Source of the DNA: a virus
Lineage: Duplodnaviria; Caudoviricetes
Virus record (IMG/VR): IMGVR_UViG_3300023284_000540
Coordinates: 1 to 55,083 of that record
Reading direction: 5' to 3' (one strand)
Length of the DNA: 55,083 bases
Shown: positions 900 to 53,746 of the stretch, piece by piece
Layout of the letters: each line of letters starts with the position of its first letter
Numbering within the stretch: the first letter of the stretch is position 1
The notes under the pieces: generated by a model
Seen by the model: the letters and a program-made list of their open reading frames with translations, nothing else
What the model was told of the DNA's origin: nothing
Database searches by the model: none
Position numbers and translations under genes: made by a program

Positions 900-928
900 G
901 GGTCCTCCAATATGTAATCATTACACTT

Positions 929-2323
929 TCACTTTGGTAAATCCCCCCACGTATCCGCTACAGCTACCCCTGCCCTGATTGGCACGGCCAAGGGTACTCC
1001 TGTCTCGAACCTATCCACCACCAGTTGCCCTAGGTCTTCTACTATATCTTCTCTAGCTTCGAATAGAAGCTCATCATGTAATTGCAATAGAGGATGTATA
1101 ACCTCCATCAAATGACCATTCTCCAAGTCATCCTGTGTGGTAGCCATACCGAGTTTTATGCAACCCTGCGCCCCAGATTGGATGGGGAAGTTACCGGCTT
1201 CCCTCAAGGATGCGCTAACCACCCACTTCAGCACACTACGGATAGCCGCAACATGCAGAACGCGGCCCCACATGTCCCACAGGTATCCTTTCTGCCTGAC
1301 TCTGCGATGATCCTCTGCCCTCATGTCCAGGACGCCAGGATATTTGAGGTAGAAAGAGTTAATTAGGTCCTGGCACTTGTTCTCGTTCCACAGTGACCTG
1401 AACCTGCCACAGTCATGCTTATCTGCTACCTTGTTACAATTGGCGCAGACTACCGGCATCTGTTCCAATAAACCCTTGGCAGTGACATCGTAGAAAGTAG
1501 CCAGCACACAGGTCTTAGCCGGATATCTGTGAGCCATCTTCTCCACTCCGGGGTACTGCCATTTGCCTGAGTGATCTTGATAACGCTGATCTTTTATTTT
1601 AAAGGCGGCGATGGCAAAGTCACTATAGATGTCTTCTCCATTTTGGTACACTTTAAGCAACCCATTGTCTAGACTGCGATGTGCTGTGACACGGGGCTCT
1701 ATCTGAGAGTAGTCAATGGATACTATTTTCCATCCTGGCTTAGTTATGAACCCGCGGCGTACATCCCTGCCACGCTCCGTCCTGGTCGGCATAGCCAGCA
1801 GATTAGGGTCCTTGCAATTTAGTCTGCCACTAGGTACCCTGGTCTGGGTCAAATGCTGGAACATACGATACTCATCCTTCGCCACACGCACGGCCAGGGC
1901 AGGCATGGGAGACACATAAGTACCCTTGAGCTTGCTTAACTCCTTATATTGCTGTATCTTGGGCACTACCGGATGATCGTGTTGGATAGCAGTAAGGACC
2001 TCATCTTCCACACTCTCCCTGGAGCCTGTTGCGGTAAGTTTGAATCGGGCTTGTTGGAGGCCCAGCTTCTTGAACAGCAAATCAGCCACCTGGTCCCCGC
2101 TGTTCAGATTGCAGTAGTAGCCCGTATCAGATTTAATCTCCTCCGTGATCCGGTCCATATCCAGGATAAGTTCCTTCTCCATCTTGGCGAAATGATCCAG
2201 GTCCACCTGCATACCGTTGGACATCATGGAGAGAATCATGGGAACTGCGCCATGATCTATCCGGGCTACGTTGGGGAGACAGGGGCCGTCAACTAGACGA
2301 ACTCCGTTATATAGTCTGGGCAT
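929..2323 (-). CDS. polA: DNA polymerase family A, polymerase domain only (split PolA)
   Basis: Motif A DYSQIEPR, motif B RYPAKTCVLATFY, motif C LQLHDELL; also SGRLNCKDPNL and NFPIQSGA. Confidence 0.95.
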   Translation of the reverse strand: MPRLYNGVRLVDGPCLPNVARIDHGAVPMILSMMSNGMQVDLDHFAKMEKELILDMDRITEEIKSDTGYYCNLNSGDQVADLLFKKLGLQQARFKLTATGSRESVEDEVLTAIQHDHPVVPKIQQYKELSKLKGTYVSPMPALAVRVAKDEYRMFQHLTQTRVPSGRLNCKDPNLLAMPTRTERGRDVRRGFITKPGWKIVSIDYSQIEPRVTAHRSLDNGLLKVYQNGEDIYSDFAIAAFKIKDQRYQDHSGKWQYPGVEKMAHRYPAKTCVLATFYDVTAKGLLEQMPVVCANCNKVADKHDCGRFRSLWNENKCQDLINSFYLKYPGVLDMRAEDHRRVRQKGYLWDMWGRVLHVAAIRSVLKWVVSASLREAGNFPIQSGAQGCIKLGMATTQDDLENGHLMEVIHPLLQLHDELLFEAREDIVEDLGQLVVDRFETGVPLAVPIRAGVAVADTWGDLPK

Positions 2324-2341
2324 TCACCTCCTTATTAATAA

Positions 2342-2551
2342 TTAACAAGACTGTCTACCAATTTCAAGTGGGTCCGAAGGATCAAGGTAACTCGTGACAT
2401 CGATCAACGGCAACCGGGGGAATCGGATGACTCTGGCCGGCGGCGGGATAAATATCTTCTTGGCCCCAGGAACCCATAGGAGCTGGTCAAGATCATAAGT
2501 CATGCCCACTGCTGAGGCGAGGGAACTAAGGATAAAGTCTCTGCGGTTCAT
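2342..2551 (-). CDS. Small protein with twin-arginine-like N-terminus (MNRRDF)
   Basis: RRxF followed by a hydrophobic stretch; GGAG RBS. Confidence 0.55.
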   Translation of the reverse strand: MNRRDFILSSLASAVGMTYDLDQLLWVPGAKKIFIPPPARVIRFPRLPLIDVTSYLDPSDPLEIGRQSC

Positions 2552-2843
2552 TCATCTCCTTCCAAAGTGTAATGATTACATCTCCATGACACGGCCCAGG
2601 CTTGCACCAGCAGCCTAGTATGGCATCAGCGGGCAATTCCCTGATCTCAATCAATATTTTTGGGTCATTAAGCGCGTCCAACTCGAACCCAGTTATGGCT
2701 TCCTCAACTGACCCCACCACTACAACAGGCTTACCTCTAACTGTGGAGAACTTGGTACTTTTATTGGTGTATCTATTGGCTAGGGATGAAGGCCTGCCTA
2801 TGTAGTGGGTGTACTCAGAGTATCTGCAATGTACAACTTTCAT
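2526..2843 (-). CDS. DUF4326-like protein
   Basis: VVHC...YIGRPS...LGCWCKPGPCHGDVI signature. Confidence 0.85.
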   Translation of the reverse strand: MKVVHCRYSEYTHYIGRPSSLANRYTNKSTKFSTVRGKPVVVVGSVEEAITGFELDALNDPKILIEIRELPADAILGCWCKPGPCHGDVIITLWKEMNEPQRLYP

Positions 2844-3160
2844 GATCTCATCAACTCCATGTGATCATGGCCGGGTTCCCAACCTAAAGGCTTGAAAGTT
2901 ACAATGACATTCTTTCCCATCTGTAGTTTGAACCCTTTCTCCTCAGCCGCTTCCTTTATAATTTCCCACTCATGGCGGCCCAGCCATTCCGTAAAAATAT
3001 AAGTATCCATATGTAGTCTGCATATGGCTTCCCCTATAAGGACGGTAGGTCTGTCAGTCTCTACCATTTCATCACTCATCCCCTTGGTTCTGACCGTGGG
3101 TATCTCTATGACAGGTATGAACTTCTGAGGATACCTACAGTTAGGATAGTTGCATAGCAT
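2840..3160 (-). CDS. Hypothetical protein with Cys/His motifs
   Basis: CxxxxC ... CRLH; start placed at MLCNYP after a GGGAG RBS. Confidence 0.55.
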   Translation of the reverse strand: MLCNYPNCRYPQKFIPVIEIPTVRTKGMSDEMVETDRPTVLIGEAICRLHMDTYIFTEWLGRHEWEIIKEAAEEKGFKLQMGKNVIVTFKPLGWEPGHDHMELMRS

Positions 3161-3425
3161 CTTTCTCCCTCTTGGCTGCCTGCTCATACTGTACCTTCTC
3201 TGCAACATGCTTGAGATGGTTCACAGCGGATATGATTTGCTTTATTTGGTCCCCTTGACCGCCTCCTTTATATAAGTATTTGCGGTAAAGGGTAGGGTCC
3301 ACGATAGGGCCTACCGTCTCGGCCATATTAACGGCATTCAACATTTCCTCTGTGGGGACCAAACAAGCCACTCTAGCTATCATCAGAACCATGTCCAAGG
3401 CGACTGCGTACTCTGTTGATTTCAT
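3141..3425 (-). CDS. Hypothetical protein
   Basis: ATGA-coupled to the upstream ORF. Confidence 0.6.
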   Translation of the reverse strand: MKSTEYAVALDMVLMIARVACLVPTEEMLNAVNMAETVGPIVDPTLYRKYLYKGGGQGDQIKQIISAVNHLKHVAEKVQYEQAAKREKDAMQLS

Positions 3426-3607: not shown

Positions 3608-3792
3608 GTGTTCATCATTAGTGAGATGCCTAATGGGTATCCTGGCATGTCTTCAATAGAGCCGAAACCCCCACCTGTAGGATAACTCCCATCTCTGGTC
3701 AATGTTACTGCACAGGCTGATGATTCAAGCATATCTTTAACCATTTTAAGTATCTGATCCTTCTCAAACTGTGTCATCTCAAACTGTGTCAT
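3571..3792 (-). CDS. Hypothetical protein
   Basis: ATGA overlap with the stop of 3789..5153; starts with a 15-bp tandem duplication encoding MTQFE-MTQFE. Confidence 0.45.
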   Translation of the reverse strand: MTQFEMTQFEKDQILKMVKDMLESSACAVTLTRDGSYPTGGGFGSIEDMPGYPLGISLMMNTCDTTKTPSHDG

Positions 3793-5153
3793 GTATCCCC
3801 CCATCTCTCTTGCGGAACCTTCCTTACCTTGGATATCATTCTCTTGAGTAAAGGATACAACCTCAATGTAGAGTCAGAGTCACGGCAGGCGTAGTTGATA
3901 ACCTTGTCGAATGGTACATGGGTTATACACTTGCCAGGATATAGCCCGGCCACTTCCTCTATTGAATCATGCTGCATCTCCCAGTTACCCCAGGATTTGA
4001 ATACATCCTTTTCAGGGTTGTTATCGTAGTCAGTAAAGAATCTTTTTAACTTAGTCTTCATAGACTGAGGTCTGTACGACTTCCACTTCCCTTGTTCATC
4101 TCTTACTAGCTCTTCATCAGGTCTAGGCCAGTCCAATCTATAGGCATCCCTGAAGTACTCCAGGACCTTGGGCAATGAGTAAGGAGTAACTAGGTCGTCA
4201 AAGTCCAGCATGTCCATCCCTAACTCTCTGTAAGCTAAGGCTTTAAGCCCCTGTGGCAGGTTGCCTAGATGGTAGGCCATGACCATAGTATCGACTACTT
4301 TTTTGTGACGAATGTGGAGTCCCATTTTAGAAATAGGAAAGTAGTCATACATCCAATTATGGAATATTATGGGACCCTCCCATTTATTCAAGGAGTCCTG
4401 GAATGCGGCTAGAAGATCAGGTCTGTTGGAGCGTATCAGCCTACCCTCACCTGGATGGTTGGAAAAGGTCAGGCAAAATGGTTCTCTCTTTCTAGTGCTC
4501 TCAGTATCTATAGATAAAGGTTTGTCATACTCCATGAAGAAAGTACCTAGCTCTACCTGATCTTTAATCTCTGAGTAGTCAGGTTCAGGGTATTCGTCCT
4601 GCGGCACTGCTAGCCTATCAGTCAAGAATCTCTTGAGCCTGTACCAGTCTGTCCTGATCTGTAACATCTTCTTGGGCTCATGAATGCCTCTCGCCGGATG
4701 GTACATAGGGAATAGCCAGCCAAATGCCGAGCGCCGTGGTATGCCGTGATGCAGGTCTAAATCTATACTCGGATCAATGGCCCTGCAAGCGAATGCTCCC
4801 ATAGGAATAACAAGCCTATGATCCCTTTCTAGTTCTTTGCTGAGGTGGAATTGAGAGCAGGACTCTAGCAATTCTATGTCCCTCGGCTTACCAGAATCTA
4901 GCTTACCTCCGCGTCCAGGAGGGAGGCATCTAATGGCATTATCGAACCGGCAGTTGGCTCTGCGTAGTCCAGCCAAAGGGAGATAGTGGGCGTTCACTTC
5001 CCATCCTGTCTTGCCAGTAAATGGATGACCGCTCCTATCCTCATCCTTGCCAGGACCCTCTCCAAGGAACAATAAGTCACTATCTTCCGGCCCATCTGGG
5101 GGAACAACGTTATTGATTCCGGGACACTCAGGGCACCGCTCTATTAAAGACAT
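3789..5153 (-). CDS. Family 4 uracil-DNA glycosylase domain fused to a PolA-type 3'-5' exonuclease (N-terminal half of an SPO1-like DNA polymerase)
   Basis: UDG4: CPEC, GEGPGKDED..GHPF.G..G, NAIRC, YHPA. Exonuclease: ExoI IDTE, ExoII HNWMYD, DTM, ExoIII YACRD. Confidence 0.9.
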   Translation of the reverse strand: MSLIERCPECPGINNVVPPDGPEDSDLLFLGEGPGKDEDRSGHPFTGKTGWEVNAHYLPLAGLRRANCRFDNAIRCLPPGRGGKLDSGKPRDIELLESCSQFHLSKELERDHRLVIPMGAFACRAIDPSIDLDLHHGIPRRSAFGWLFPMYHPARGIHEPKKMLQIRTDWYRLKRFLTDRLAVPQDEYPEPDYSEIKDQVELGTFFMEYDKPLSIDTESTRKREPFCLTFSNHPGEGRLIRSNRPDLLAAFQDSLNKWEGPIIFHNWMYDYFPISKMGLHIRHKKVVDTMVMAYHLGNLPQGLKALAYRELGMDMLDFDDLVTPYSLPKVLEYFRDAYRLDWPRPDEELVRDEQGKWKSYRPQSMKTKLKRFFTDYDNNPEKDVFKSWGNWEMQHDSIEEVAGLYPGKCITHVPFDKVINYACRDSDSTLRLYPLLKRMISKVRKVPQERWGDT

Positions 5154-5777: not shown

Positions 5778-5998
5778 TTTGTCTCCTTATCCCTTTCCCC
5801 CCACACAGATATTGACCCATCGCAGTGGCCAGCATCTTCATTGGAATATTCAAATCTCCATTGTGATTTGCGCTTACCGTCCTCTAATGGAAAGTGGTCC
5901 ATGCCAAAAATGTCACCTATGCCCCCTAGCAAGTTCTGTAGAGCAACAGCCATATCCTTAGTCGTAATACTAACCTCAATTCTCATCCATATCTTCAT
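5774..5998 (-). CDS. Hypothetical protein
   Basis: Start MKIWMR overlaps the ERCC4 gene stop (ATGA). Confidence 0.5.
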   Translation of the reverse strand: MKIWMRIEVSITTKDMAVALQNLLGGIGDIFGMDHFPLEDGKRKSQWRFEYSNEDAGHCDGSISVWGERDKETK

Positions 5999-6726
5999 TT
6001 GCTGTTTATCTCCTTCACGATATTCTGGGCCGTCTTGACTCCTATTCCTGGCACCCTCAACCAATCTAACTCATCTGCTTGCGCCAAACTGCTGGCCTTC
6101 TTGAATAGTCTCTCAGCATCTATGCTGTGCTTGACACCCACTCCTGTCAGCTGAGCCGCCCATCTCCTGACTAGACTAGGCTTGCCTCTCATGTCAGGTA
6201 TAGCTAACTTCTGTGTTTCCAACAAGCTAGTATGATTTTCCCACTTCTTCTGGAAGTAGTGATAGCAGTTGCAGATGTTAACTGCTGTATGCTCCAGAGT
6301 CATACTATATGTAATGATTACACCTGAAAGTGATACGCTGAGGAGGTAGCGATAGAGCTTGGAGTACATAACTCTCTGGCTACGATAAACTAGGGGGAAC
6401 CAGCCAGCACCTTTGTTGGTTATTAGCAGACCCTCCCAATTAGGGCCGGAGCCAGCGGCCCAGACACCCTCTATGACTAGGAGACTCTTGTCATACATAT
6501 TCATCATACCTGGCCTCTGGTGAGCAACGTAACGGGCATCGTCAATGCAGTTGAGCATGTCATGTATAGTCTTGCGCTCTATTCCTATAGAAATAATACC
6601 TTTAGGTCCCTTGCCTTCGAAACATACATCACCGAACTCTAGCTGTGTTAGCTCAGCATGGACGCCTAGTCTTTTGATTGGGGGGAGCAGTTCCGCGCTA
6701 CCCACGCGAGAATCGATGAAGATCAT
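5995..6726 (-). CDS. ERCC4/XPF-family structure-specific nuclease with C-terminal helix-hairpin-helix
   Basis: IDSR, GD, IERKTIHD, IEG; HhH motifs LTGVG and VPGIGVKTA; ATGA-coupled start. Confidence 0.88.
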   Translation of the reverse strand: MIFIDSRVGSAELLPPIKRLGVHAELTQLEFGDVCFEGKGPKGIISIGIERKTIHDMLNCIDDARYVAHQRPGMMNMYDKSLLVIEGVWAAGSGPNWEGLLITNKGAGWFPLVYRSQRVMYSKLYRYLLSVSLSGVIITYSMTLEHTAVNICNCYHYFQKKWENHTSLLETQKLAIPDMRGKPSLVRRWAAQLTGVGVKHSIDAERLFKKASSLAQADELDWLRVPGIGVKTAQNIVKEINSK

Positions 6727-7238
6727 TTGCCGGATTGCCTCCATGCGAATCCCTTCTTTGTCAGCAGCCACCACGTAAACTCCTTATCCTTCGGGTTTGG
6801 GTTTGGTTGGGCTTCTACATAACCATTATTAACTAGTTCATCAAGGGCTATGTATTTGTCCCCAGCAGTATCAGTAAGCGTTCCACAGGGCCATATTCCC
6901 TTCAGCAGATGCTTGGCTGCTTCAGATAGTTTATCCTTCGGATTGGGTTGGGCCTTATGGATGGCTGGTGTCGAAAGGTCTGCCCATGTAGACCTATCCG
7001 AAGCCACCTTCTCGGTGCTGACTATAGGGGATTTAACCAGCGCCATCTTTAGCCTTTCCAGTTTGATCCACTCCACCAAGGACCAGCCACACACATCCAC
7101 CAATTCTGACTGAATCTCGGCTATTCCGTCTATATGGCTGATATTAAACGACTTGTCTCCATAGGTGCTGTGACCTGTTTCCATCTTGGAGTAGAGTTGC
7201 TGCATGAAGTCCATGAAGTAAGGCTTGAATGTTGACAT
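6723..7238 (-). CDS. MazG-like/all-alpha NTP-pyrophosphatase-like N-terminus fused to a small winged-helix-like C-terminal domain
   Basis: G..TYG...EIQSELVD pattern; C-terminal LVNNGYV...WLLTKKG. Confidence 0.5.
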   Translation of the reverse strand: MSTFKPYFMDFMQQLYSKMETGHSTYGDKSFNISHIDGIAEIQSELVDVCGWSLVEWIKLERLKMALVKSPIVSTEKVASDRSTWADLSTPAIHKAQPNPKDKLSEAAKHLLKGIWPCGTLTDTAGDKYIALDELVNNGYVEAQPNPNPKDKEFTWWLLTKKGFAWRQSGK

Positions 7239-8321: not shown

Positions 8322-8594
8322 TTATCTATTATTCCTTCCCTGTGGCGTTTGCTTATGCAATCTCTTCTTCATTGAAGATAACTCGCTGCCAATTTTCCAT
8401 ATCAGGGTCAACTTTGCCAGTTCCTCTTTCTTCAATCTATCTATGTCGTTCCTTAATCTGGTATTGACACTGGTCAGCACCTCTATGCTGATTGTCACCA
8501 ACACCAGACACAGAACAAGTGACCAATGATAGTAACTAGCTATAATAAGTAGTAACACCCCAGTCAGGGATAACCGAACGAGCCATACAATCAT
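8322..8594 (-). CDS. Small membrane protein (2 TM)
   Basis: Two hydrophobic segments; ATGA coupling. Confidence 0.55.
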   Translation of the reverse strand: MIVWLVRLSLTGVLLLIIASYYHWSLVLCLVLVTISIEVLTSVNTRLRNDIDRLKKEELAKLTLIWKIGSELSSMKKRLHKQTPQGRNNR

Positions 8595-42486: not shown

Positions 42487-42527
42487 TTCTGTCTCCTTTT
42501 ATCCAAAATAAAGTGTAATGATTACAC

Positions 42528-45358: not shown

Positions 45359-45509
45359 ATGTATACTTACAGAGCAATCAGCATTCTGGGCCACTTTCTC
45401 TCCCTCCTGGACCACACAGACCCCAAGAATGGCTGGGCTAGAGTCAAGCTGGAACACGCCATATGGCATTTAGTCAGGGGAATGTAATCATTACACATAG
45501 GAGACTACA

Positions 45510-45734
45510 ATGAAAAGTACAGGCTACCAACCCTGGGAGATTACAACGGAAGTTAAAGGCTATCAACCCAAAGGCCCCGTACCTGACAATCCTAAGCCCC
45601 CTAATGCCGGACCGTCCGCCGTGTACCCTACAGAAGATCGAAACGCATGGATGCTCAAGCGCAAGGTTTGCACCTGCCCCACGCCTGATTGTGGTTGCAT
45701 GGAATGCTGCATTCTACGAGACGGCACCCTGTAA
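45510..45734 (+). CDS. Hypothetical Pro/Cys-rich protein
   Basis: AGGAG RBS; GYQP repeats; Cys-rich C-terminus. Confidence 0.55.
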   Translation: MKSTGYQPWEITTEVKGYQPKGPVPDNPKPPNAGPSAVYPTEDRNAWMLKRKVCTCPTPDCGCMECCILRDGTL

Positions 45735-46160
45735 CACGGTTACCATTTAGATGTTAGAGTCAATAAACCTCCCCCCCCCCCGGCCTGGCAGTACTGGGAG
45801 TCCCATCGCTCGACTGTGACTCCCAGCCCGCCTATTACGACTAGGACCACCAGTACCATGACACGCCGACCGGCACGCTGACGTATACCTAATGTATATA
45901 CAACGTATATGCAACGTATAGACTCAGTATATACAATGATACAATGTATACACGACCAGGTCCTAACAGTACCAGGGACCACAGCACGTAGCCTGCCAAA
46001 CTGAGTACTATGGGGGTCCTAGTCCAATAATTAGGACCACTAGTACCACCAACACCAGAATGTAATCATTACACATTGGGACCTATCCATACTAGTCGGC
46101 CTACTGGTCTCAAAAACAAATCAGGGCTTCCAGTACTAGGTATGCCTAATATACAATCTC
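45735..46160. other. Non-coding repeat-rich region (C11 run, GTATA/TATAC repeats, GGACCA/AGTAC repeats); candidate origin or packaging site
   Basis: C11 at 45771-45781, AT-rich repeats at 45882-45953, palindrome at 46061. Confidence 0.45.
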
Positions 46161-46380
46161 TCCATGGACGCGACTCACAGTGAACGACGCGGCCCTGATA
46201 GTGGCTGCTATCATGCATCGGATGGTATTGGCAAGGTCCCGATGGCCTATCCGCATATACTAAGAGAGGCATTTATCCCTCTTCGTGCAAAACGGTTGGA
46301 CCGTGAGCAACGGTGGGCGGTAGCACTGATAACCGTCTCTCTGCTAATGATACCATTGGCTGGAATGCTGATGCTGTACC

Positions 46381-46626
46381 TTGCACCTAAAGTTTAATGG
46401 AGGGGAAGTGAAAAGACACAATCATCAAATGATATTCGGGCAGCTGGAAACCGGTTGCCCTAGGTGCGATGAACTAAAGGCGGGGGCTCCCATACGACAG
46501 GCTCCTTGGTTCAAGCGAGCACGCCAACGCAAGGCTGCCTTGGCGCATGAACTACAAGCCATCCAGGAGCATGACTTTGTGGCCTGCTCCAAAAAGCACA
46601 TCGCCTGCACACACTTTGACTGGTAG
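46381..46626 (+). CDS. Small Cys/His-rich phage protein
   Basis: HNH..FG....CPRCDEL..G...EHD...C.....CT.FDW; likely GTG start at 46408 after GGAGG. Confidence 0.65.
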   Translation: MHLKFNGGEVKRHNHQMIFGQLETGCPRCDELKAGAPIRQAPWFKRARQRKAALAHELQAIQEHDFVACSKKHIACTHFDW

Positions 46627-46930: not shown

Positions 46931-47028
46931 CACCCTTTATTGAAACCCCGATAGAGGCATTGCGCGGGTGTACAACTGGGAACTGTGCGCCTAGCGGAAT
47001 GTAATCGTTACACAAAAGGGCAATCTAA

Positions 47029-48129
47029 ATGGCTTCGTGGAACATAAGAGAGGTTTTTCGTTTCCGCAACGGCACTTACCAAACCTTTCCGCAAGAGGTA
47101 TGGACTAAGTTGAACCAGCATAATGTGATGCTTTGCTGGGAGCATTATATACACCTTTCCACGCAACGCCCTGACATGGTGGCGTACACTCAATCGGACG
47201 CGCACGGTGAAGAGGACAGGCAAACATTAATGCGATTCGGGCGATATCTAAAGCGATACCATCCTCTGCTCTCTGACAAACAAGTTGAGGAACTAGCAGG
47301 ATTGCTTAGGACGCGCAAAGATGATAGCAAGCAGAACGGTGGCGGGTTGCACTTGGCAACGGACAGGGAAACCATTAAGGAAATATTTGAGACTCCCCTA
47401 CACGCCGGCGAGAGTGCTCCGGTCTCCTGTATGTGTGAATTTGATACCTGGACAAACCCACCCTACATGGTATACGCGGGATCGCCGGATGTAGCTATTG
47501 CGTATCTGCGCGAATCATCCGGCATTATAGCCCGAACGGTAGTGTCAACAAAGTATAAATGGTGGGTGAGGATGTATACAACGGGCGGCGATGATCACGA
47601 GTACCTCTGTAGCAGACTACGTGAGGCACTTCACAAAGCAGGTTACGAGAGGAGAGGGTCATTAAAAGATTGCAGATTATCGGTGCTGGAAGAGGAAGGA
47701 CATTACGCACTTCCCTATATTGACGGGAGTGCTTGGTACGTATATCAGAACGGCGATTATTGGGTTGTAACGGATAATGATGAAGAGGGGGAGTACTCCT
47801 GTCAAGAAACGTCGGGCAGGGGTGATGAGGTAGAACGGACTCACTGCGCCAATTGTGAGGAAATAATCTCGCAAGGGGATGAAGAGTACCCCACAGTCGA
47901 TGGCACCGTTTGTTCAGATTGCATCGAAAACTACATCCGCATAAATGACTATAATAGGGATGGCTATTTTCCCGCAGATGACTGTTCCGAAGGTTGCGAT
48001 GGCGAGTACCATCTAAGCAGAGATTTAGAGAGAGATTGCCACGTAACAGATTGCACCTGCTTCGAAGACCAGCAAGAGCTAGACCTAGAATCCAACACAG
48101 ATGGGGGAACGGAAAGTGAAACGGTATAA
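47029..48129 (+). CDS. Hypothetical protein with C-terminal CxxC repeats
   Basis: FGRYL, SCM, LPYIDG, CANC...CSDC, acidic tail. Confidence 0.75.
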   Translation: MASWNIREVFRFRNGTYQTFPQEVWTKLNQHNVMLCWEHYIHLSTQRPDMVAYTQSDAHGEEDRQTLMRFGRYLKRYHPLLSDKQVEELAGLLRTRKDDSKQNGGGLHLATDRETIKEIFETPLHAGESAPVSCMCEFDTWTNPPYMVYAGSPDVAIAYLRESSGIIARTVVSTKYKWWVRMYTTGGDDHEYLCSRLREALHKAGYERRGSLKDCRLSVLEEEGHYALPYIDGSAWYVYQNGDYWVVTDNDEEGEYSCQETSGRGDEVERTHCANCEEIISQGDEEYPTVDGTVCSDCIENYIRINDYNRDGYFPADDCSEGCDGEYHLSRDLERDCHVTDCTCFEDQQELDLESNTDGGTESETV

Positions 48130-48988
48130 TTCCTTATTATTGAACATCTTAGAGAGAAAGCGCCGCTCTAATAGCAGGACGGAAAAGCGATTCCTACGGG
48201 CGGTCCTTGATCCAGTACCGGGAATGCAAAGGGACGGATTCGGCAACCGTTGGCTCCGAATAGGTGAATCAGAGACCATGATAGCCTGCCACACAGATAC
48301 GGTCCACATAACTGGCGGGTTGCAAAAGTTAGCAGCTTGGCGTGGTGAATTGATGCTACTGGAGAATGATGGGGATTGCCTCGGTGCCGATGACGGAGCA
48401 GGAGTCTATGCGGCGCTTCGCATGATAGCAGAGCAAGTCCCTGCCCTCTATGTGTTCCATCGACAAGAGGAAATTGGCGGTCATGGCTCGGAGTGGATCG
48501 CTTCCAGTGAACCGGAGCTAACAAAAGGAATCAAGCGATGCATTTCCCTCGACAGGCGCGGGACTCAGGATATCATCACGCATCAATTCGCGGGGCGCTG
48601 TGCAAGTGACGAGTTTGCCGACGCCCTTGCTCAATTGTTAGATATGGGTCACAGTGCTAGCGATAGGGGATCGTTCACTGATTCCGCCAATTATACGGAC
48701 CTAATACCCGAATGCACTAACCTGTCCATAGGCTATGAAATGGAGCATAGTCTCATGGAGACTCTGGACGTCGACTACCTGGAGAATCTAATAGCTAGGT
48801 TGTGCGGAGCGGACTTAGAATCCCTGCCTACTGTGCGCGATCCTTCAGAGTGCGCGAGCTGGCCTCGGCATGATACCTCTTTTGTTCCTTTCTATCAAAG
48901 AGAATTTGCATGGAAGAATGGCGCGGAGCTGTATAACAGGGAAATGACTCCAGCAGACAAGGTGCTGCTCGATTATGAGGGAAAGTGA
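48101..48988 (+). CDS. M28/M20-family metallopeptidase
   Basis: HTDTVH, GADDGAG, EEIGG.GS, DRRG, FTD, NLSIGY..EH. Confidence 0.85.
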   Translation: MGERKVKRYNSLLLNILERKRRSNSRTEKRFLRAVLDPVPGMQRDGFGNRWLRIGESETMIACHTDTVHITGGLQKLAAWRGELMLLENDGDCLGADDGAGVYAALRMIAEQVPALYVFHRQEEIGGHGSEWIASSEPELTKGIKRCISLDRRGTQDIITHQFAGRCASDEFADALAQLLDMGHSASDRGSFTDSANYTDLIPECTNLSIGYEMEHSLMETLDVDYLENLIARLCGADLESLPTVRDPSECASWPRHDTSFVPFYQREFAWKNGAELYNREMTPADKVLLDYEGK

Positions 48989-49191
48989 CTAAAACTCGTC
49001 CTGACATACAGTTAGCAGCATTTCAGAACTATGCCGAGTATGTCTACATGAATGAGCGGCGGGAGATGCAGAAGAGTGCGGCTGATGCGACGGAGCAGAC
49101 TAAGGTTAGGCTACTGGAGAAATGCTTGCCCTCGATGCGTCGGCATGTACAGAGTGCCGTACTGAAAGCTAGGAAACGATTTGGGGATTAG
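48985..49191 (+). CDS. Hypothetical protein
   Basis: GTGA coupling. Confidence 0.5.
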   Translation: MTKTRPDIQLAAFQNYAEYVYMNERREMQKSAADATEQTKVRLLEKCLPSMRRHVQSAVLKARKRFGD

Positions 49192-49217
49192 ACTGTAATC
49201 ATTACAAGAGGGGCTAT

Positions 49218-49409
49218 ATGAGCCTAGTAGATGAAAATCCCGAATGGTTCAACAATTGGATTGAACTGCAAGCTATCCTAGGCAGGTTTGGCGTGAGTGC
49301 CCAGGAGCAGGTTGTGGCAGGAGAGATAACCGGGAGCGACTTATGGGAAGAGCACCCGGACTTGTACACTGAGGCAGAGACTACTTTCTTAGAAAGACTC
49401 GTGATGTAA
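49218..49409 (+). CDS. Hypothetical acidic protein flanked by two palindromes
   Basis: GAGG RBS; its stop codon lies inside the palindrome at 49405. Confidence 0.55.
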   Translation: MSLVDENPEWFNNWIELQAILGRFGVSAQEQVVAGEITGSDLWEEHPDLYTEAETTFLERLVM

Positions 49410-49435
49410 TCATTACAAGATAAGGGGAGGGAATA

Positions 49436-49648
49436 ATGTTTTTTTTGAGAGAGATATCGAAAAGGGATGTAAACAAAGCAATTTTCTGGGCCAATGGTCG
49501 GCCTTATCTCACGGCTGATTTCATAGGTCGGATAATACCTCAAGATGTAGGCAAACGGGTTCACCTTGTAGGGGAGAATGTGCTGCAAGTTGAAAACGCA
49601 GAACAATTCGCTGCTCGAATGGGAAATAAAAGCAATAAAAAGACTTGA
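49436..49648 (+). CDS. Conserved small phage protein
   Basis: GRI.PQDVGKRV.....LQVEN.EQ; GGAGG RBS. Confidence 0.65.
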   Translation: MFFLREISKRDVNKAIFWANGRPYLTADFIGRIIPQDVGKRVHLVGENVLQVENAEQFAARMGNKSNKKT

Positions 49649-50306: not shown

Positions 50307-50579
50307 ATGAATCAGGGTGTTGCGATAAAGGTGCATCTTTCAGAGGAGGACCTAATTGCTCTCCGAAGTATACAGAGGCGGATCGGGGGCAGCCGATTGG
50401 TCCCAGGGCCGTCAATACATTCTCTGATCCTCAAAGCCATACGGCTATATTATACCGAGTGCCTTGAGGGGGTTGATGGGGTTGGTGCCGAGAAGGCGCT
50501 GGGAGATAGCTGGGAAGAGGGTTGGCGCAATGACATTGACAGAAAGCACCGATACCCAGGAGAGGAGCCTACGCAATGA
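50307..50579 (+). CDS. Putative ribbon-helix-helix DNA-binding protein
   Basis: Beta-alpha-alpha pattern IKVHLSEE...SLILKAIRLY; AGGAGG RBS. Confidence 0.55.
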   Translation: MNQGVAIKVHLSEEDLIALRSIQRRIGGSRLVPGPSIHSLILKAIRLYYTECLEGVDGVGAEKALGDSWEEGWRNDIDRKHRYPGEEPTQ

Positions 50580-50797
50580 ATATACCCATAGATCAGGCCC
50601 TATTATGCGTCAATTGTGAGTGCATAGTTGACATTGACCCTGAGTCCAAGGGTACGCGCTGCATTCATTACGGGAGCAGAGGTGTAGTTCTCTTGGCCAT
50701 TCTCCTGTCAGAGAGCAAGGCATGGCCCCATGATGTAATCATTACACCCTTAAGCGAGACTTTAGCTGTTAAAACTGACAGGGAAAAGGAGAAATAA
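50576..50797 (+). CDS. Small Zn-ribbon-like protein
   Basis: LCVNCE...RC..YGS; ATGA coupling. Confidence 0.55.
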   Translation: MNIPIDQALLCVNCECIVDIDPESKGTRCIHYGSRGVVLLAILLSESKAWPHDVIITPLSETLAVKTDREKEK

Positions 50798-50990: not shown

Positions 50991-52265
50991 ATGGCAAAGA
51001 AGAGAGCAATGGTTTCTCAAAAGGAGGGGACCCTTGCATACCTGGAACCAGAAAGTATCGAGATGAGCGAGAATACCCGATTCGGCCTGAAGCAGAGCAG
51101 GGTTGACTCGATAGCTCAGAGCATCATGGAAATGGGGGGAGTCATGGTCCCTGGAGAGGTGGATGAGTTGGACCATCCGATTGGCGACTACCGCTACCGG
51201 CTCACGGCTGGGGCCTACCGCTTAGTAGCCATATTGCAGGTGAACAGGGAAGGGGCCGGACTGTTATTTCCAGCGATGATAGTTTCCCCCGCTAATGCAG
51301 AGGAGAGGCTGAGGCGGCAACTGACGGAAAACATGGAGCGGGAGAACCAGACCCCGATGGATCAGGCGACGGCCATCCGGCAACTGCTTGACAATGGGGT
51401 GGCTAAGATGGAAATTCGCAACATCTTCTCCCGCCCTGGAGGGCGCAAGGGCGTGAGAACTCAGCCTGCATCCAACTCGTTCATCAATATGACCTTATCG
51501 TTCCTCGACCTTCCCAAAGACACCCAGCGCAAGATTCATGAAGGTGCCGTGGGCGTGGCCGCTGCCTACCAGCTTACGAGGGTTCCACCAGACAAGAGAG
51601 AGGAAGTCCTGGAGAAGGCAGAGAAGGAGCGCGAAGCCGAGGTGAAAAAGGCGGAGAAGGAAGAGGAAAAGTTCCTGGCTAGCGAGAAAAAGGGCCAGGG
51701 CGCCATCGAGAAACAACAGGATATGGAAAGGGACCTTGAGGTGGCCAAGGAAACACTTGCCAAGGCAGAAAAGAATCTTGCCGACAGGACTGAACTGGAG
51801 GTTGCGGCCTATAAGGAGAAGGCTTCTCTAAAACCCAGCTCCGCCCCCAAGAAGACCCTGGAGAAGCTGAACGAGCAGTTTCGAGCCGCTGAGGCCGAAG
51901 CCAAAACGGCACGCCGGGCAGTGGAGGTTGCCCGCAATGCCGTAGTCAAGCGAGAGGACAAAACCGCCAAGGCTACTGAGGTTGCAGAGGCCAAGCCTGA
52001 GAAGGACAAGAAGGCCAAGGTCGTCAAACTAGGACCTGAGCACATCAAGAAAGCGGCCAAGCAGACTGGGGCATCAACTGGGCTCGTTGCTCCGAGTTCC
52101 AAGAACATAAGGGATACGTTCAGGACTCTGGCCCTACCGCCTGACTGCAAGACGAGGCGGATAGGCAAGGCACTTGTTCGGTTCGGAGCCGGTACGACAA
52201 CCGAGAACCAGCTCATTGAGGAAATCCAGGCAGTCGTGGGTGAGGTTCCCAAGAGCAAGAAATAG
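50991..52265 (+). CDS. parB: ParB/Spo0J/KorB-family protein with a long Lys/Glu/Ala-rich coiled-coil C-terminus
   Basis: ENTR, IAQSI...G...P, LTAGAYRL.A (arginine-patch position), ENMERENQTPMDQA, HTH region ...LSFLDLP. Confidence 0.85.
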   Translation: MAKKRAMVSQKEGTLAYLEPESIEMSENTRFGLKQSRVDSIAQSIMEMGGVMVPGEVDELDHPIGDYRYRLTAGAYRLVAILQVNREGAGLLFPAMIVSPANAEERLRRQLTENMERENQTPMDQATAIRQLLDNGVAKMEIRNIFSRPGGRKGVRTQPASNSFINMTLSFLDLPKDTQRKIHEGAVGVAAAYQLTRVPPDKREEVLEKAEKEREAEVKKAEKEEEKFLASEKKGQGAIEKQQDMERDLEVAKETLAKAEKNLADRTELEVAAYKEKASLKPSSAPKKTLEKLNEQFRAAEAEAKTARRAVEVARNAVVKREDKTAKATEVAEAKPEKDKKAKVVKLGPEHIKKAAKQTGASTGLVAPSSKNIRDTFRTLALPPDCKTRRIGKALVRFGAGTTTENQLIEEIQAVVGEVPKSKK

Positions 52266-52382
52266 TCTTTGCTGGCTCCTGGAGAGGAGCAACAATGGAG
52301 CAGGATATAATGCTAGTATTAGGTGTCATAGTCTGTTTCATACTTTTTTGTGCATTTATCTTGGATATGCGGAGATGAACCC

Positions 52383-52592
52383 ATGACAAAAGTAGAAATA
52401 TATTTCTTTGATCGCAGGGGAATAGTTCAGCGTTACGTCACAATGTCTAATAGATCGGCACCCTCGTTGATCCGAAGCATCCTAAAGTATGGGTTTGCGG
52501 ACTGTAGTGACTTCAGGGAAAGGACTATAGCCCCAGGTGCGATTCTGGAGCTAGGGGAGATAAAGGATACTAGGAAGGCGGGAGGACCATGA
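52383..52592 (+). CDS. Hypothetical protein
   Basis: GGAG RBS; ATGA-coupled to the lysin gene. Confidence 0.5.
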   Translation: MTKVEIYFFDRRGIVQRYVTMSNRSAPSLIRSILKYGFADCSDFRERTIAPGAILELGEIKDTRKAGGP

Positions 52593-53035
52593 CAGAGCAT
52601 TTCACGAGGAAAGAGTTCGAGAAGGGCGGGGCTATACCACTGAAAGCACTGGACTTACTGGCTGACTTTAGCCAGACCATCCTGGAGCCCATCAGGTCCA
52701 AGTTCGGCAAGCCTGTGCATATCACTAGTGGCCATAGGAGCGTAAAGTACAATAGGAAAGTAGGCGGGGCCTCTAACAGCCAGCATGTCTACACTAGGGA
52801 AATGTGCGCTGCTGATATTACGATCCCAGGTGTTCTGCTACAAGAGGTATTCGATTGGATCAGACTGAAATCAAAGCTGCCATTCGATCAGGTTATCCTT
52901 GAGAGGGGAAAGCAGGCTAGGCATGAGGCTGATGATTGTATTCATATCTCATATGTCAGGGGACCGCGTAGGGTGGCGTTGGAAGGATCGACTCACGGGA
53001 CAGGGGGTTACAAGAAGGTGGAAGTTAAAACCTAG
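52589..53035 (+). CDS. Peptidase M15A-family endolysin (D-Ala-D-Ala carboxypeptidase-like)
   Basis: HFT..EF, ITSGHRS..YN..VGGASNSQH, AAD, IHISY. Confidence 0.88.
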   Translation: MTEHFTRKEFEKGGAIPLKALDLLADFSQTILEPIRSKFGKPVHITSGHRSVKYNRKVGGASNSQHVYTREMCAADITIPGVLLQEVFDWIRLKSKLPFDQVILERGKQARHEADDCIHISYVRGPRRVALEGSTHGTGGYKKVEVKT

Positions 53036-53173
53036 TCCCTAAAGTTTCCTCTAGAGTCTTTATTTCATTCTTCAGCTTGACAATCTCTAGCTCAGACTCA
53101 GTACAACCAGGGCAATGCTGATTATCCCTGATTCTGCCATCAGCCTCAACAAACATCAATCCTTCACAGTCCA

Positions 53174-53407
53174 TTAGTTCCTCCCGGTCCATCCCATACT
53201 ATATTTAGTATGCAAGTATGCTAATTCTAGTATGTCCTCTTTATCCGGCATATCGTACCTACAGGCCAGGTCCGATATTCTCCAATTGGTCTCAATACCA
53301 AAACAGTCCATGATTTGTATCCTGAACCCGCTCACACCTCTGGTCAGGGCTATAAGTAGTACTGACTTGGGTGTATTGGGATGTGAGAATACCTTTGCAA
53401 TGAACAT
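53174..53407 (-). CDS. Hypothetical protein
   Basis: ORF in the minus-strand operon. Confidence 0.5.
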   Translation of the reverse strand: MFIAKVFSHPNTPKSVLLIALTRGVSGFRIQIMDCFGIETNWRISDLACRYDMPDKEDILELAYLHTKYSMGWTGRN

Positions 53408-53425
53408 GATAGAGATATGTAATGA

Positions 53426-53746
53426 TTACACTGCCCACAGGAGGCTGATGACCTCGCCCTTATTGACCCTGACTCTGTGGTTGGACAAGTTGAATACATA
53501 GGTCACAACAGGGCCGTCTGATAAGAGCCCTTGATCTACTATAAAGTTTTTGGTAATAAACACTCCAGGGGATCGTAACAGTATAACTCTATCCTCGTTA
53601 CATTTCAGCTCGCATCCATGCTGTACAGTACCGTAACACATACCTGGGACTTCTATACTTGTGGATGCCATGAGTTCTAACATAGCACCCTTTGGCAAGT
53701 CAATTCTAATCTCGTCTCCTCTATCAGGCCGCAGAATAAGGGCCAT
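53426..53746 (-). CDS. Degenerate trimeric dUTPase-fold protein
   Basis: IVD....GPV...VFNLS...VRVNKGEVISLL aligns by eye to dUTPase motifs 3-4, but motifs 1, 2 and 5 are not evident. Confidence 0.5.
   Translation of the reverse strand: MALILRPDRGDEIRIDLPKGAMLELMASTSIEVPGMCYGTVQHGCELKCNEDRVILLRSPGVFITKNFIVDQGLLSDGPVVTYVFNLSNHRVRVNKGEVISLLWAV

What the first reader, a model, noticed from the sequence alone, without database searches (positions are those of the whole stretch)
913..53430. Genome-wide lattice of a 13-bp palindrome TGTAAT(G/C)ATTACA (27 sites, about one per 2 kb) paired with an orphan ParB: candidate KorB/OB-like system in a phage
Seen: 25 exact and 2 one-mismatch copies around the whole circle, often extended to (A)GTGTAATSATTACAC(T). 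The chance expectation for the exact 13-mer is about 2x55,000/4^13, roughly 0.002. Sites fall on promoters (14365, 44670), at gene junctions (913, 22571, 27797, 29794, 31612, 36294, 40034, 42514, 49194, 49405, 53418) and inside CDSs. Known: plasmid RK2 KorB, a ParB-family CTP clamp, binds a 13-bp palindrome with a central G/C (TTTAGCSGCTAAA) at about a dozen promoter-proximal, distal and intragenic sites. Noc/NBS and MatP/matS are other dispersed-palindrome systems, and mycobacteriophage L5 stoperators are the repressor analogue. Inference: a phage protein, most attractively the ParB-like 50991..52265, loads at these sites to coat, compact, protect or globally silence the genome.
Basis: partly seen in the sequence, partly recalled or inferred. 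Interest (0 to 1): 0.92.

Follow-up and report, generated by a model that had tools for sequence, protein, structure and literature searches.

The report
Phage-wide palindrome sites, orphan ParB reader
An uncultured tailed phage and its relatives write one short DNA palindrome about every 2 kb through their whole genomes, even into their own genes, most likely as docking sites for the phage's own partner-less ParB-type DNA-binding protein.

Summary
In detail: 25 exact and 2 one-mismatch copies of TGTAATSATTACA, with none expected by chance. The lattice is a family trait. Eleven further viral records or contigs carry it at one site per 1.2-3.1 kb.

Selection acts on the DNA:
- Sites keep their positions in orthologous genes and junctions.
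- One lineage switched every site to TGTAACSGTTACA. This changed its portal protein from VIIT to VTVT at the same column.

The orphan ParB-family gene is present in every relative large enough to judge. Of 40 ParB columns invariant in 27 canonical-motif sequences, only Q158 changes in all three variant-motif lineages. Q158 lies at the entry of the recognition helix.

The rival XRE protein does not follow the switch. No binding was measured, so I put ParB as reader at about 0.6.

I infer that it loads at the sites and spreads, as KorB and Noc do. I found no ParA and no tyrosine integrase.

My literature searches found no description of this. Cluster O mycobacteriophage repeats are an unexplained parallel (PMC4351075). 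This scan has noted similar orphan-ParB lattices on other phage DNA.

The parts
913..925 (.). site, exact; junction between the stop of the polymerase gene 929..2323 and the RBS/start of 3..899
2568..2580 (.). site, exact; inside 2526..2843 (read VIIT), 17 nt upstream of the start of 2342..2551
6310..6322 (.). site, exact; inside the ERCC4-HhH nuclease gene 5995..6774 (VIIT); a site at the same place in 8 of 10 orthologue rows
8891..8903 (.). site, exact; inside 8591..9220 (VIIT)
11323..11335 (.). site, exact; inside 10561..11508 (VMIT); same column in G003
13367..13379 (.). site, exact; inside the helicase gene 11891..13459 (VMIT); same alignment column in 7 of the 9 rows that cover it
14365..14377 (.). 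site, exact; intergenic, abuts the -10 of sigma-70-like promoter 14405..14377 upstream of XRE gene 13975..14343
20920..20932 (.). site, exact; inside 20797..21273 (VMIT)
22571..22583 (.). site, exact; 17-bp gap between the tape-measure gene stop (22586) and the start of 21954..22568
26340..26352 (.). site, exact; inside 26211..26564 (VIIT)
27797..27809 (.). site, exact; junction, contains the TAA stop of 27805..28659
29794..29806 (.). site, exact; junction, contains the ATG of 29188..29802; a site at the orthologous junction in G009
31612..31624 (.). site, exact; junction between 31630..32574 and 31042..31593
34158..34170 (.). site with one mismatch (TGTAATGATTACG); junction between 34233..34862 and 33766..34140, next to terminator-like hairpin 34204..34185
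36294..36306 (.). site, exact; junction between 36318..36737 and 35053..36264; a site at the orthologous junction in G009
37770..37782 (.). site, exact; inside 36786..38258 (VMIT); G009 has a VTVT-coded site two alignment columns away
38715..38727 (.). site, exact; inside the portal gene 38322..40034 (VIIT); G009 has its variant site, coding VTVT, at the same column
40034..40046 (.). site, exact; directly upstream of the portal start codon; a site at the orthologous place in G009
42514..42526 (.). site, exact; just after the large-terminase stop (42528); a site at the orthologous place in G009
44670..44682 (.). site, exact; divergent intergenic region; the -10 of leftward promoter 44697..44668 lies inside it
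45483..45495 (.). site, exact; 14 nt upstream of the start of 45510..45734, just before its RBS
46061..46073 (.). site, exact; between 45740..45982 and 46164..46397; gene context uncertain
47000..47012 (.). site with one mismatch (TGTAATCGTTACA); 16 nt upstream of the start of 47029..48129
49194..49206 (.). site, exact; junction between 48985..49191 and 49218..49409
49405..49417 (.). site, exact; contains the TAA stop of 49218..49409, upstream of 49436..49648
50734..50746 (.). site, exact; inside 50576..50797 (VIIT), about 245 bp upstream of the ParB start
53418..53430 (.). site, exact; junction between 53426..53746 and 53174..53407; a site at the orthologous place in G009
50991..52265 (+). 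orphan ParB-family gene (424 aa) and proposed reader. It has a ParB/Srx N-domain (GAYR, ENMERE) and an HTH with a beta-hairpin in its turn. The recognition helix spans 162-173 and Q158 lies at its entry. A long coiled-coil hairpin (200-333) and a helical C-terminal domain follow.
13975..14343 (-). conserved small XRE-type HTH gene (122 aa), the rival reader; its promoter carries site 14365

Best explanation
The 27 palindromes are double-stranded DNA binding sites for a dimeric protein that the phage itself encodes. The most likely reader is the orphan ParB-family protein at 50991..52265.

Shown here:
- The sites are real and evenly spread.
- They are kept in place by selection on the DNA across a family of uncultured siphophages.
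- They have changed sequence in concert in some lineages.

Each HTH of a dimer would read one RTGTAAT half-site, and residue 158 at the entry of the recognition helix would help set the base read at positions 5-6.

Inferred from the family (KorB, Noc, chromosomal ParB): after docking, the protein closes as a nucleotide-gated clamp and spreads from each site. With one site per 1.5-2.7 kb, the whole genome would then be covered by a ParB nucleoprotein layer.

The purpose of that layer is the weakest step. My preferred reading is that it marks, organises or shields the replicating phage DNA. The few promoter-proximal sites (14365, 44670) could add KorB-like repression as a side effect. Partition is unlikely, because I found no ParA and no integrase.
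For: 1. Reality and sharpness. There are 25 exact, 2 one-mismatch and 0 two-mismatch copies, with 0 expected.

2. Family trait.
- G001 has 25 exact 13-mers in 48.7 kb, G002 19 in 34.5 kb and G004 5 in 7.4 kb.
- G005 has 33 in 49.5 kb and G006 has 17 in 25 kb.
- G008 has 25 cores in 66.9 kb and G010 has 38 in 63.2 kb.
- Contig C89 of G011 has 19 in 45.3 kb.
- Variant lattices occur in G009 (17 GTAACSGTTAC), G007 (18 GTAGTSACTAC) and G003 (23 GTAAYSRTTAC).
- The structural modules of most of these phages share no blastp-detectable homology with the window, yet they carry the sites. The lattice is therefore genome-wide rather than tied to particular genes.

3. Selection acts on the DNA.
- 131 of 248 cores lie outside ORF interiors, against about 32 expected.
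- The helicase site sits in the same alignment column in 7 of 9 rows, and the ERCC4 site in 8 of 10 rows.
- G009 shares structural genes with the window at 56-70% amino-acid identity and has sites at 8 or more orthologous places, all in the switched form. The portal reads VIIT in the window and VTVT in G009 at the same column.

4. Recognition is symmetric, as expected for duplex DNA. The central base is always G or C. Read in the sense strand it is G 115 and C 109, P = 0.74, with 24 sites set aside as ambiguous.

5. ParB family membership.
- PF17762 HTH_ParB scores 23.5 bits against a cut-off of 22.6, and phrog_1033 matches at 8.5e-13.
- A profile of the family hits Spo0J 1vz0 at 4.6e-8, and also Noc and Myxococcus ParB.
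- The AF2 model has pLDDT 93.6. Foldseek finds Noc 7ng0 at 3.1e-8, ParB 7bnk and 6sdk, and KorB 8qa9 with TMt 0.56.

6. Co-occurrence. A ParB homologue is found in 10 of the 10 lattice-bearing relatives of 25 kb or more (G001-G003, G005-G010 and G011:C89).

7. Co-variation.
- Of 29 ParB rows with Q158, 27 have GTAATSATTAC as the main or only motif. The other two are 2-kb contigs: one has no site and one has only a hybrid site.
- The 3 non-Q rows with a readable lattice all have variant motifs: G003 has E with AAY, G009 has E with AAC, and G007 has A with AGT.
- On a quick tree each variant sits next to Q/AAT lineages: G007 with L185 (support 97), G003 with G010 (85), and G009 with G000, G008 and L168.
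- Of 40 columns invariant in the 27 canonical rows, only residue 158 differs in all three variants.
- In the model it is the last residue of strand 156-158, just before helix 162-173.
- In ParB and Noc, specificity is set by a few residues in and near this helix (PMC7383237, passages read).

8. The rival XRE does not track the motif. L209 has an AAC-type lattice (4 GTAACSGTTAC, 3 hybrids, 0 canonical), but its XRE helix looks like the canonical ones.
Against: - No binding was measured, and no protein-DNA model could be made with these tools.
- There are only three motif-switch events. All three lie on long ParB branches (1.06-1.8 changes per column), where many residues change. Three other long branches (L205, G008, G010) kept both Q158 and the motif, so the contrast among long branches is 3 against 3.
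- Inside the recognition helix, residues 164-170 vary among phages that share the identical motif: T, M, Y, S, V or K at 168.
- L185 and G007 share the helix SNAWVNIV but differ in motif. Everything then rests on residue 158 and the loop before it.
- The CTP-pocket arginine patch is degenerate (GAYR or GFYR for GERR). Pfam's ParB N-domain model did not reach E 0.01, so clamp chemistry is uncertain.
- No site lies inside any ParB gene, unlike many parS-parB arrangements.
- The ParB of the second AAC-type phage (L209) is not on its 14-kb record.
- Two other proteins, the small XRE and a 154-aa protein of unknown fold, are also conserved in the lattice-bearing relatives.
Confidence: 0.6

Rival explanations
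1. The conserved small XRE-type HTH protein (13975..14343) is the reader. The lattice would then be a stoperator-like set of repressor sites, and ParB would be unrelated to it.
For: - A profile of the family finds homologues in G001, G007, G008 and G010. hmmsearch finds them in all nine records that include the replication module.
- The window's own XRE promoter carries a site over its start region.
- In the first nine sequences, two of seven invariant columns (L39, R47) differed in both variant-motif phages.
- As I recall, repressors of Cluster A mycobacteriophages bind about 30 dispersed sites.
Against: - L209 has an AAC-type lattice (4 switched sites, 3 hybrids, 0 canonical). Yet it keeps L39, R47 and a helix (LSHLSRIFSGQR) like those of canonical phages.
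- The first residues of the presumed recognition helix vary widely among phages with the identical 15-bp motif: DQSW, SISH, SKSY, STSH, DNTY, YPNH.
- Sites show no orientation relative to transcription.
- Only 2 of 27 sites touch predicted promoters.
- No tyrosine integrase was found in 5 near-complete genomes.
Confidence: 0.1
2. Another phage protein of the shared module reads the sites. Candidates are the 154-aa protein 54359..54823, which lies near ParB in several relatives, or a replication protein. The sites would then serve replication, recombination or packaging.
For: - The 154-aa family is present in all 10 relatives compared and is often next to ParB.
- One of its 11 invariant columns (I53 to V) differs in all three variants.
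- The site spacing of 1.5-2.7 kb co-inherits with the polymerase-helicase module.
Against: - The 154-aa protein has no Pfam family and no PDB fold match at E 0.001.
- Its only phrog match is weak, to a RecE-like family (6 of 10 members, best 4.3e-7).
- It is only 27-47% identical among phages that share an identical motif.
- The I-to-V change is conservative.
- Polymerase, helicase and ERCC4 are not known to read 13-bp palindromes (my own knowledge).
Confidence: 0.1
3. A host DNA-binding protein reads the sites, and the phages have adopted a host motif.
For: The host is unknown, so this cannot be excluded. Related phages with different motifs could infect different hosts.
Against: - In the only cellular bin that holds a relative (G011, 1.4 Mb, labelled Patescibacteria), 19 of 19 sites lie on the one 45-kb phage-like contig and none elsewhere. 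The bin may not be the host.
- The motif changes follow a change in a phage protein.
- The control pattern and the shuffles give 0.
Confidence: 0.07
4. The element acts in RNA, as a small hairpin at gene junctions that affects mRNA processing or stability.
For: More than half of the sites lie at gene junctions. The 15-19-nt palindrome can fold into a stem of 6-8 pairs at -5.1 to -8.6 kcal/mol in 3 of 4 contexts tested. The AGT/ACT variant keeps the pairing.
Against: - The sequence is invariant where a stem would tolerate compensated changes.
- The central base is G or C with no strand preference, 115 to 109.
- Hybrid half-sites occur in G003 and L209.
- 117 of 248 sites lie in ORF interiors.
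- One of 4 contexts does not fold the hairpin at all.
- There was no Rfam match.
Confidence: 0.04

Closest known systems
KorB and its OB operators on IncP-1 plasmid RK2 (PMC11790492, passages read; the count of 12 OB sites is recalled, not seen)
   Same: Both have a ParB-family protein with an HTH. Both have a 13-bp palindrome with a central G/C (the OB core in the paper's oligo is TTTAGCGGCTAAA). In both, the sites are scattered over the replicon, some at promoters and most not. KorB is a CTP-gated sliding clamp that acts at a distance. The KorB structure 8qa9 is among the best fold matches (TMt 0.56).
   Different: - KorB has a ParA partner (IncC) and the clamp-locking partners KorA and TrbA. 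Here I found no ParA and no partner is shown.
- The site density is higher here, 27 in 55 kb.
- The replicon here is a tailed phage in which no integrase was found.
- The protein carries a degenerate arginine patch, a beta-hairpin in the HTH turn and a long coiled-coil hairpin.
- Pfam reported no KorB-specific family.
Noc and its NBS sites on the Bacillus subtilis chromosome (PMC7383237 passages read; PMC8429893 abstract from the search listing)
   Same: Noc is an orphan ParB paralogue without ParA. It reads a palindrome scattered over a whole replicon and spreads from it under CTP control. Noc structures are the top fold and sequence matches. Its specificity differs from ParB through a few residues at the HTH, the same kind of change as proposed here.
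   Different: Noc ties DNA to the membrane to block division, and it is cellular. I did not test for a membrane-targeting helix here. The site sequence is unrelated.
17-bp dyad repeats of Cluster O mycobacteriophages such as Corndog (PMC4351075, passages read)
   Same: These are siphophages with more than 30 copies of an invariant palindrome (TGTTCGGNNNCCGAACA) throughout the genome. The copies lie between genes, near gene starts and inside genes, mostly away from promoters and without orientation. [quoted passage not shown] Their function is unexplained.
   Different: The sequence and spacer differ (7-3-7 against 6-1-6). The authors did not link the repeats to the ParB-like protein. Apart from Burkholderia phage KS9, no cultured phage, and so no Cluster O phage, matched the window's ParB at E 0.001. 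Homology between the two systems is therefore not shown.
Stoperators of Cluster A mycobacteriophages (as described in PMC4351075 and recalled)
   Same: Dozens of 13-bp sites for one phage protein are spread through the genome.
   Different: Stoperators are asymmetric, oriented with transcription and bound by an immunity repressor of temperate phages. Here the sites are symmetric and unoriented, and no integrase was found.
BisD, the ParB-like CTP clamp of ICEclc (PMC12409273, abstract from the search listing)
   Same: BisD is an orphan ParB-like clamp on a mobile element that is used for something other than partition.
   Different: BisD activates specific distant promoters from a few sites. 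No genome-wide lattice is reported for it.

Membership tests
ParB/Noc/KorB superfamily (protein 50991..52265) | N-terminal ParB/Srx (ParB-CTPase) fold followed by an HTH DNA-binding domain | tested here: met
   A profile of the family hits Spo0J 1vz0 at 4.6e-8 over both domains. Foldseek finds Noc 7ng0 at 3.1e-8, plus ParB 7bnk, ParB 6sdk and KorB 8qa9. PF17762 scores 23.5 bits against a cut-off of 22.6.
ParB/Noc/KorB superfamily (protein 50991..52265) | Nucleotide-pocket motifs: Box II GERRxRA and Box III ENLQRE (motif names recalled) | tested here: inconclusive
   Box III is kept as ENMERE. Box II is reduced to G-x-x-R (GAYR or GFYR). G74 and R77 are invariant and N114 and R117 nearly invariant across 143 family members. 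PF02195 did not reach E 0.01.
ParB/Noc/KorB superfamily (protein 50991..52265) | CTP binding and hydrolysis, with clamp closure and sliding | not testable with these tools
   This needs biochemistry. The survey PMC12704722 (passages read) reports that ParB-fold proteins may bind CTP, ATP or GTP.
Canonical ParABS partition system | A ParA ATPase partner, and parS sites clustered at or near parB | tested here: not met
   PF13614 gave no match in 5 of 5 near-complete genomes, while the control rang in 14 of 14 genomes. The sites are dispersed, and none lies in any ParB gene.
KorB-OB regulatory system | A short palindrome with a central G/C at many dispersed sites on one replicon | tested here: met
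   This is a likeness in how the system works, not in sequence.
KorB-OB regulatory system | KorB-specific domain and clamp-locking partners (KorA, TrbA) | tested here: not met
   Pfam listed only PF17762 and a weak Phage_Gp23 match. No partner was shown.
Stoperator-type repressor network | Asymmetric sites oriented with transcription, in a temperate phage with an immunity repressor | tested here: not met
   The sites are symmetric. The sense-strand centre base is G 115 and C 109. PF00589 gave no match in 5 of 5 genomes. Serine recombinases were not searched.
Cluster O mycobacteriophage dyad repeats | Invariant dyad repeat, more than 30 per genome, mostly not at promoters, with a ParB-like domain gene present | tested here: met
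   for this family, and PMC4351075 for Cluster O. The likeness is one of pattern. Homology of the proteins was not found.

The most novel reading that the evidence does not exclude
Orphan ParB-type clamps with a private, genome-wide palindrome code form a widespread 'phage chromatin' system in virulent tailed phages. The clamp would load about every 2 kb and coat the whole replicating genome. This would mark the DNA as self and gather or shield it from host nucleases, silencers or competing phages. The code would diversify by single changes at the mouth of the recognition helix (Q158 to E or A, AAT to AAC or AGT), followed by concerted rewriting of every site, even inside essential genes. Co-infecting relatives would thereby be kept apart, much as incompatibility groups keep plasmids apart.
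Probability: 0.25. Interest if true: 0.88.

Novelty: new variant of a known kind. Interest (0 to 1): 0.75.

Why it matters
ParB-family CTP switches are known from partition (ParB), division control (Noc), plasmid gene silencing (KorB) and ICE activation (BisD). Orphan ParB genes are common in phages, but their role is open (PMC12704722, passages read). Cluster O mycobacteriophages have carried an unexplained genome-wide palindrome since 2015 (PMC4351075).

This family links the two observations and offers a ready test bed:
- A 13-15-bp site.
- A soluble-looking protein that models with high confidence.
- A natural series of specificity switches (AAT, AAY, AAC, AGT), with one candidate residue to swap.
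- Site positions so strongly selected that a portal protein changed sequence to keep its site.

The protein family is large. A profile search returned 229 cluster representatives at E 1e-30 or better, with at least 11 different residues at position 158. A recognition code could therefore be read out by comparison alone once the contigs can be fetched.

If the reading is right, it adds a new job for ParB clamps, coating a whole viral genome. It would also explain a recurrent feature of phage genomes.

Tried and rejected
- Close DNA relatives among cultured phages: none (megablast).
- The ParB protein against cultured phages found only a 25%-identity match in Burkholderia phage KS9. The polymerase found nothing above about 30% identity. 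The host therefore stays unknown.
- The genome-contig scan found a single relative, in a bin labelled Patescibacteria. I do not treat that label as the host.
- The XRE at 44747..45358 and the HTH protein at 43928..44542 were dropped as readers. They have homologues only in G009 among the relatives.
- My first blastp table wrongly showed the XRE 13975..14343 as absent from G007 and G008. A profile search corrected this.
- An RNA hairpin or terminator role is judged unlikely.
- Restriction or methylation target: the XamI-like match (8591..9220, E 2.9e-4, below the cut-off) has no orthologue in the relatives.
- Complex prediction on ParB 1-215 with the XRE protein, to test a KorB-KorA-like pair, returned 'no answer' (score 0.00). 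It is evidence neither way.
- The 154-aa conserved neighbour gave a moderate model (pLDDT 76.1) with no PDB fold match at E 0.001.
- The careful tree did not finish in the time allowed, so the tree I cite is the quick one, with SH-aLRT support only.
- I could not obtain DNA for the non-Q158 family representatives. This was the decisive comparison I had planned.
- I opened no supplementary files. The supplements of PMC12704722 (its phage ParB lists) and PMC4351075 might bear on novelty.
- The statement that no paper describes this rests on searches only.

Full report
**The observation**

The window is a complete IMG/VR virus record of 55,083 bp with a 144-bp terminal repeat. No dinucleotide-preserving shuffle produced a single copy. 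Allowing two mismatches adds only two one-mismatch copies (34158, 47000) and no two-mismatch copy. The family of sites is therefore unusually sharp.

The flanks make it a 15-bp palindrome, RTGTAATSATTACAY. Relatives show a weaker 19-21-bp consensus.

**What the phage is**

Genes run leftward from about 44.6 kb to 1 and rightward from 44.7 to 53 kb. They include:
- a split family-A DNA polymerase, a helicase and an ERCC4-HhH nuclease;
- terminase, portal, a capsid protease-like protein, a tape measure and a 2,023-aa tail protein;
- an M15 peptidase and two XRE-type HTH proteins;
- a 424-aa ParB-like protein.

I found no tyrosine integrase and no ParA-type ATPase in the window or in four other near-complete relatives. 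Both searches rang in 14 of 14 control genomes. No cultured phage is close, so the host is unknown.

**The lattice is a family trait**

A scan of IMG/VR for a 14-base version of the motif turned up records with several hits. Whole-record counts are as follows:

| Record | Size | Count |
|---|---|---|
| G001 | 48.7 kb | 25 exact 13-mers |
| G002 | 34.5 kb | 19 |
| G004 | 7.4 kb | 5 |
| G003 | 30.8 kb | 6 |
| G005 | 49.5 kb | 33 |
| G006 | 25 kb | 17, plus 2 near copies |
| G008 | 66.9 kb | 25 cores |
| G010 | 63.2 kb | 38 cores |
| G011 contig C89 | 45.3 kb | 19 |

At DNA level these phages share only patches of 64-82% identity with the window. At protein level they share mainly the replication module, ParB, a small XRE and a 154-aa protein. 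Their structural modules are mostly unrelated. The sites nevertheless run through the whole of each genome.

**The motif varies**

Three lineages carry a changed lattice:
- G007 has 18 copies of GTAGTSACTAC.
- G009 has 17 copies of GTAACSGTTAC.
- G003 mixes AAT and AAC half-sites, giving 23 GTAAYSRTTAC.
- A fourth record, L209, is AAC-type with hybrids.

**Selection acts on the DNA**

- Across 11 records, 131 of 248 cores lie outside ORF interiors, where about 32 are expected (binomial P 8.5e-51). My ORF calls are naive.
- Gaps are more even than random. The CV is 0.55-0.74 against about 0.95, and P is 0.012 or less in 4 of the 8 records tested.
- In the window, all 10 intragenic sites are read V-[I/M]-I-T. 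One frame of the palindrome has a stop on both strands and the other codes C-N-[D/H]-Y, so this is the frame that coding tolerates.
- Sites keep their positions over deep divergence. The helicase site is in the same alignment column in 7 of 9 rows, and the ERCC4 site in 8 of 10 rows.
- G009 shares the window's structural genes at 56-70% identity. It has sites at 8 or more orthologous places. These are after the terminase stop, before the portal start, inside the portal, inside the next gene, at two further junctions, after the 53426..53746 orthologue, and in the divergent control region. Every one is in the switched form.
- At the portal site the window codes VIIT and G009 codes VTVT in the same column. 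The protein changed in order to keep a site of the new sequence.

This pattern is what one expects if a trans-acting reader changed specificity and the sites followed.

**DNA or RNA**

The centre is always G or C. Read in the sense strand it is G 115 and C 109 (P 0.74, with 24 sites ambiguous). Hybrid half-sites exist. The RNA hairpins are weak to moderate, and one of four contexts does not form the hairpin at all. There was no Rfam match. I read the element as a duplex-DNA site for a symmetric dimer.

**Who reads it**

The 424-aa protein belongs to the ParB/Noc/KorB superfamily.
- PF17762 is just above its cut-off and phrog_1033 matches at 8.5e-13.
- A profile of the family hits Spo0J, Noc and Myxococcus ParB.
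- A confident model (pLDDT 93.6) matches Noc, ParB and KorB structures.
- The model shows a ParB N-domain and an HTH whose turn holds a beta-hairpin (strands 148-150 and 156-158). It also shows a recognition helix at 162-173, a coiled-coil hairpin of about 130 residues, and a helical C-terminal domain.
- Box III of the nucleotide pocket is kept (ENMERE). Box II is reduced to GxxR.

A homologue is present in all 10 lattice-bearing relatives of 25 kb or more.

Metagenome contigs added further members. In 33 rows with a ParB segment, 29 have Q at the position aligned with window residue 158. Of these, 27 carry GTAATSATTAC as the main or only motif. The two exceptions are 2-kb contigs, one with no site and one with a single hybrid site.

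The four non-Q rows are G003 (E, AAY), G009 (E, AAC), G007 (A, AGT) and L192 (S, no such motif found in 6 kb). On a quick tree each of the three variants sits beside Q/AAT lineages, so they are separate events.

Of 40 columns invariant in the 27 canonical rows, only residue 158 differs in all three variants. It is the last residue of the strand that leads into the recognition helix. In ParB and Noc, specificity rests on a few residues in and next to that helix (PMC7383237, passages read).

The caveats are real. There are only three events, all on long branches. Residues inside the helix vary among phages with the same motif. L185 shares G007's helix but not its motif.

**Rivals**

- *The small XRE (13975..14343).* It is also conserved, and its promoter carries a site. 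Two of its seven invariant columns at first looked discriminating. But L209, with an AAC-type lattice, keeps both residues and a canonical-looking helix. The helix start also varies widely among same-motif phages.
- *The 154-aa neighbour.* It has no recognisable DNA-binding fold.
- *A host factor.* This cannot be excluded without the host. In the one cellular bin that holds a relative, all 19 sites lie on the phage-like contig and none lies in the other roughly 1.35 Mb.

**How it likely works**

*Shown:* a selected, evenly spread, symmetric DNA site that co-evolves with the phage.

*Supported by comparison:* ParB reads it.

*Inferred from the family:* docking at the site, nucleotide-gated closure and spreading. 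At one site per 1.5-2.7 kb this would cover the genome. KorB clamps slide from OB sites and repress at a distance (PMC11790492, passages read). Noc spreads from scattered NBS sites (PMC8429893, abstract only).

Only 2 of 27 sites touch predicted promoters, and the sites fill operons that have no internal promoters. The main role is therefore probably physical, that is marking, gathering or shielding phage DNA, rather than promoter-by-promoter control. This last step is a guess.

**Comparison and novelty**

The closest working models are KorB-OB and Noc-NBS. The closest phage parallel is the unexplained 17-bp repeat of Cluster O mycobacteriophages. Those phages also encode a ParB-like domain protein, but their authors drew no link to it (PMC4351075, passages read). 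A 2025 survey lists many orphan phage ParB-fold proteins without assigning them sites (PMC12704722, passages read).

My searches found no paper that describes a genome-wide ParB lattice in a phage. I did not see any supplements.

Earlier notes of this scan report similar orphan-ParB lattices with other palindromes in other phage lineages. Those notes are unchecked AI notes and I did not use them as evidence.

I class this as a new variant of a known kind. The family is large, with 229 cluster representatives at E 1e-30 or better and at least 11 different residues at position 158.

Noticed in passing
window 929-5153: The family-A DNA polymerase is split into two genes: 3789..5153 (matches phrog_17 positions 565-830) and 929..2323 (positions 841-1233). 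About 1.4 kb of small ORFs lies between them. The split is conserved in the relatives.
   Followed up: partly
window 14741-20812: The 2,023-aa tail protein gene (Phage-tail_3, CBM_4_9) holds no site. It makes the largest gap in the lattice, 6,555 bp.
   Followed up: no
window 27805-29802: Three genes lie inside the tail module and are bracketed by two sites. One is unassigned, one is a Methyltransf_11 protein, and one has a weak MptE-like match. One site supplies a TAA stop and the other an ATG.
   Followed up: no
window 54359-54823: A 154-aa protein is conserved in all 10 relatives compared and often lies next to ParB. It has no Pfam family, a weak match to a RecE-like phrog in 6 of 10 members, and no PDB fold match at E 0.001. 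Insignificant HU/IHF-like rows top the fold list.
   Followed up: partly
G007 (locus L144-L146), whole record: The variant lattice of G007 has asymmetric flanks. One side is usually GT (GTGTAGT) and the other CC (CCGTAGT), so many sites read AGTGTAGTSACTACGGT.
   Followed up: no
G003 (L130-L131) and L209: These lattices have hybrid sites, with one AAT and one AAC half-site. They look like a relaxed or intermediate specificity between the AAT and AAC codes.
   Followed up: partly
L198 / G011 contig C89: A 45-kb phage-like contig with 19 canonical sites sits in a 1.4-Mb bin labelled Patescibacteria. No site lies elsewhere in the bin. It may be a binning artefact or a host hint.
   Followed up: partly
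ARAGORN found no tRNA or tmRNA in the window, and Rfam gave no match at gathering scores.
   Followed up: partly
window 8591-9220: A 209-aa protein has a weak, below-cut-off match to the XamI restriction endonuclease family (E 2.9e-4). It has no orthologue in the relatives.
   Followed up: no
window 34185-34204: A strong terminator-like hairpin (8 pairs, 7 of them G-C, followed by a T-run) lies about 15 bp from the one-mismatch site at 34158, after the gene 34233..34862.
   Followed up: no
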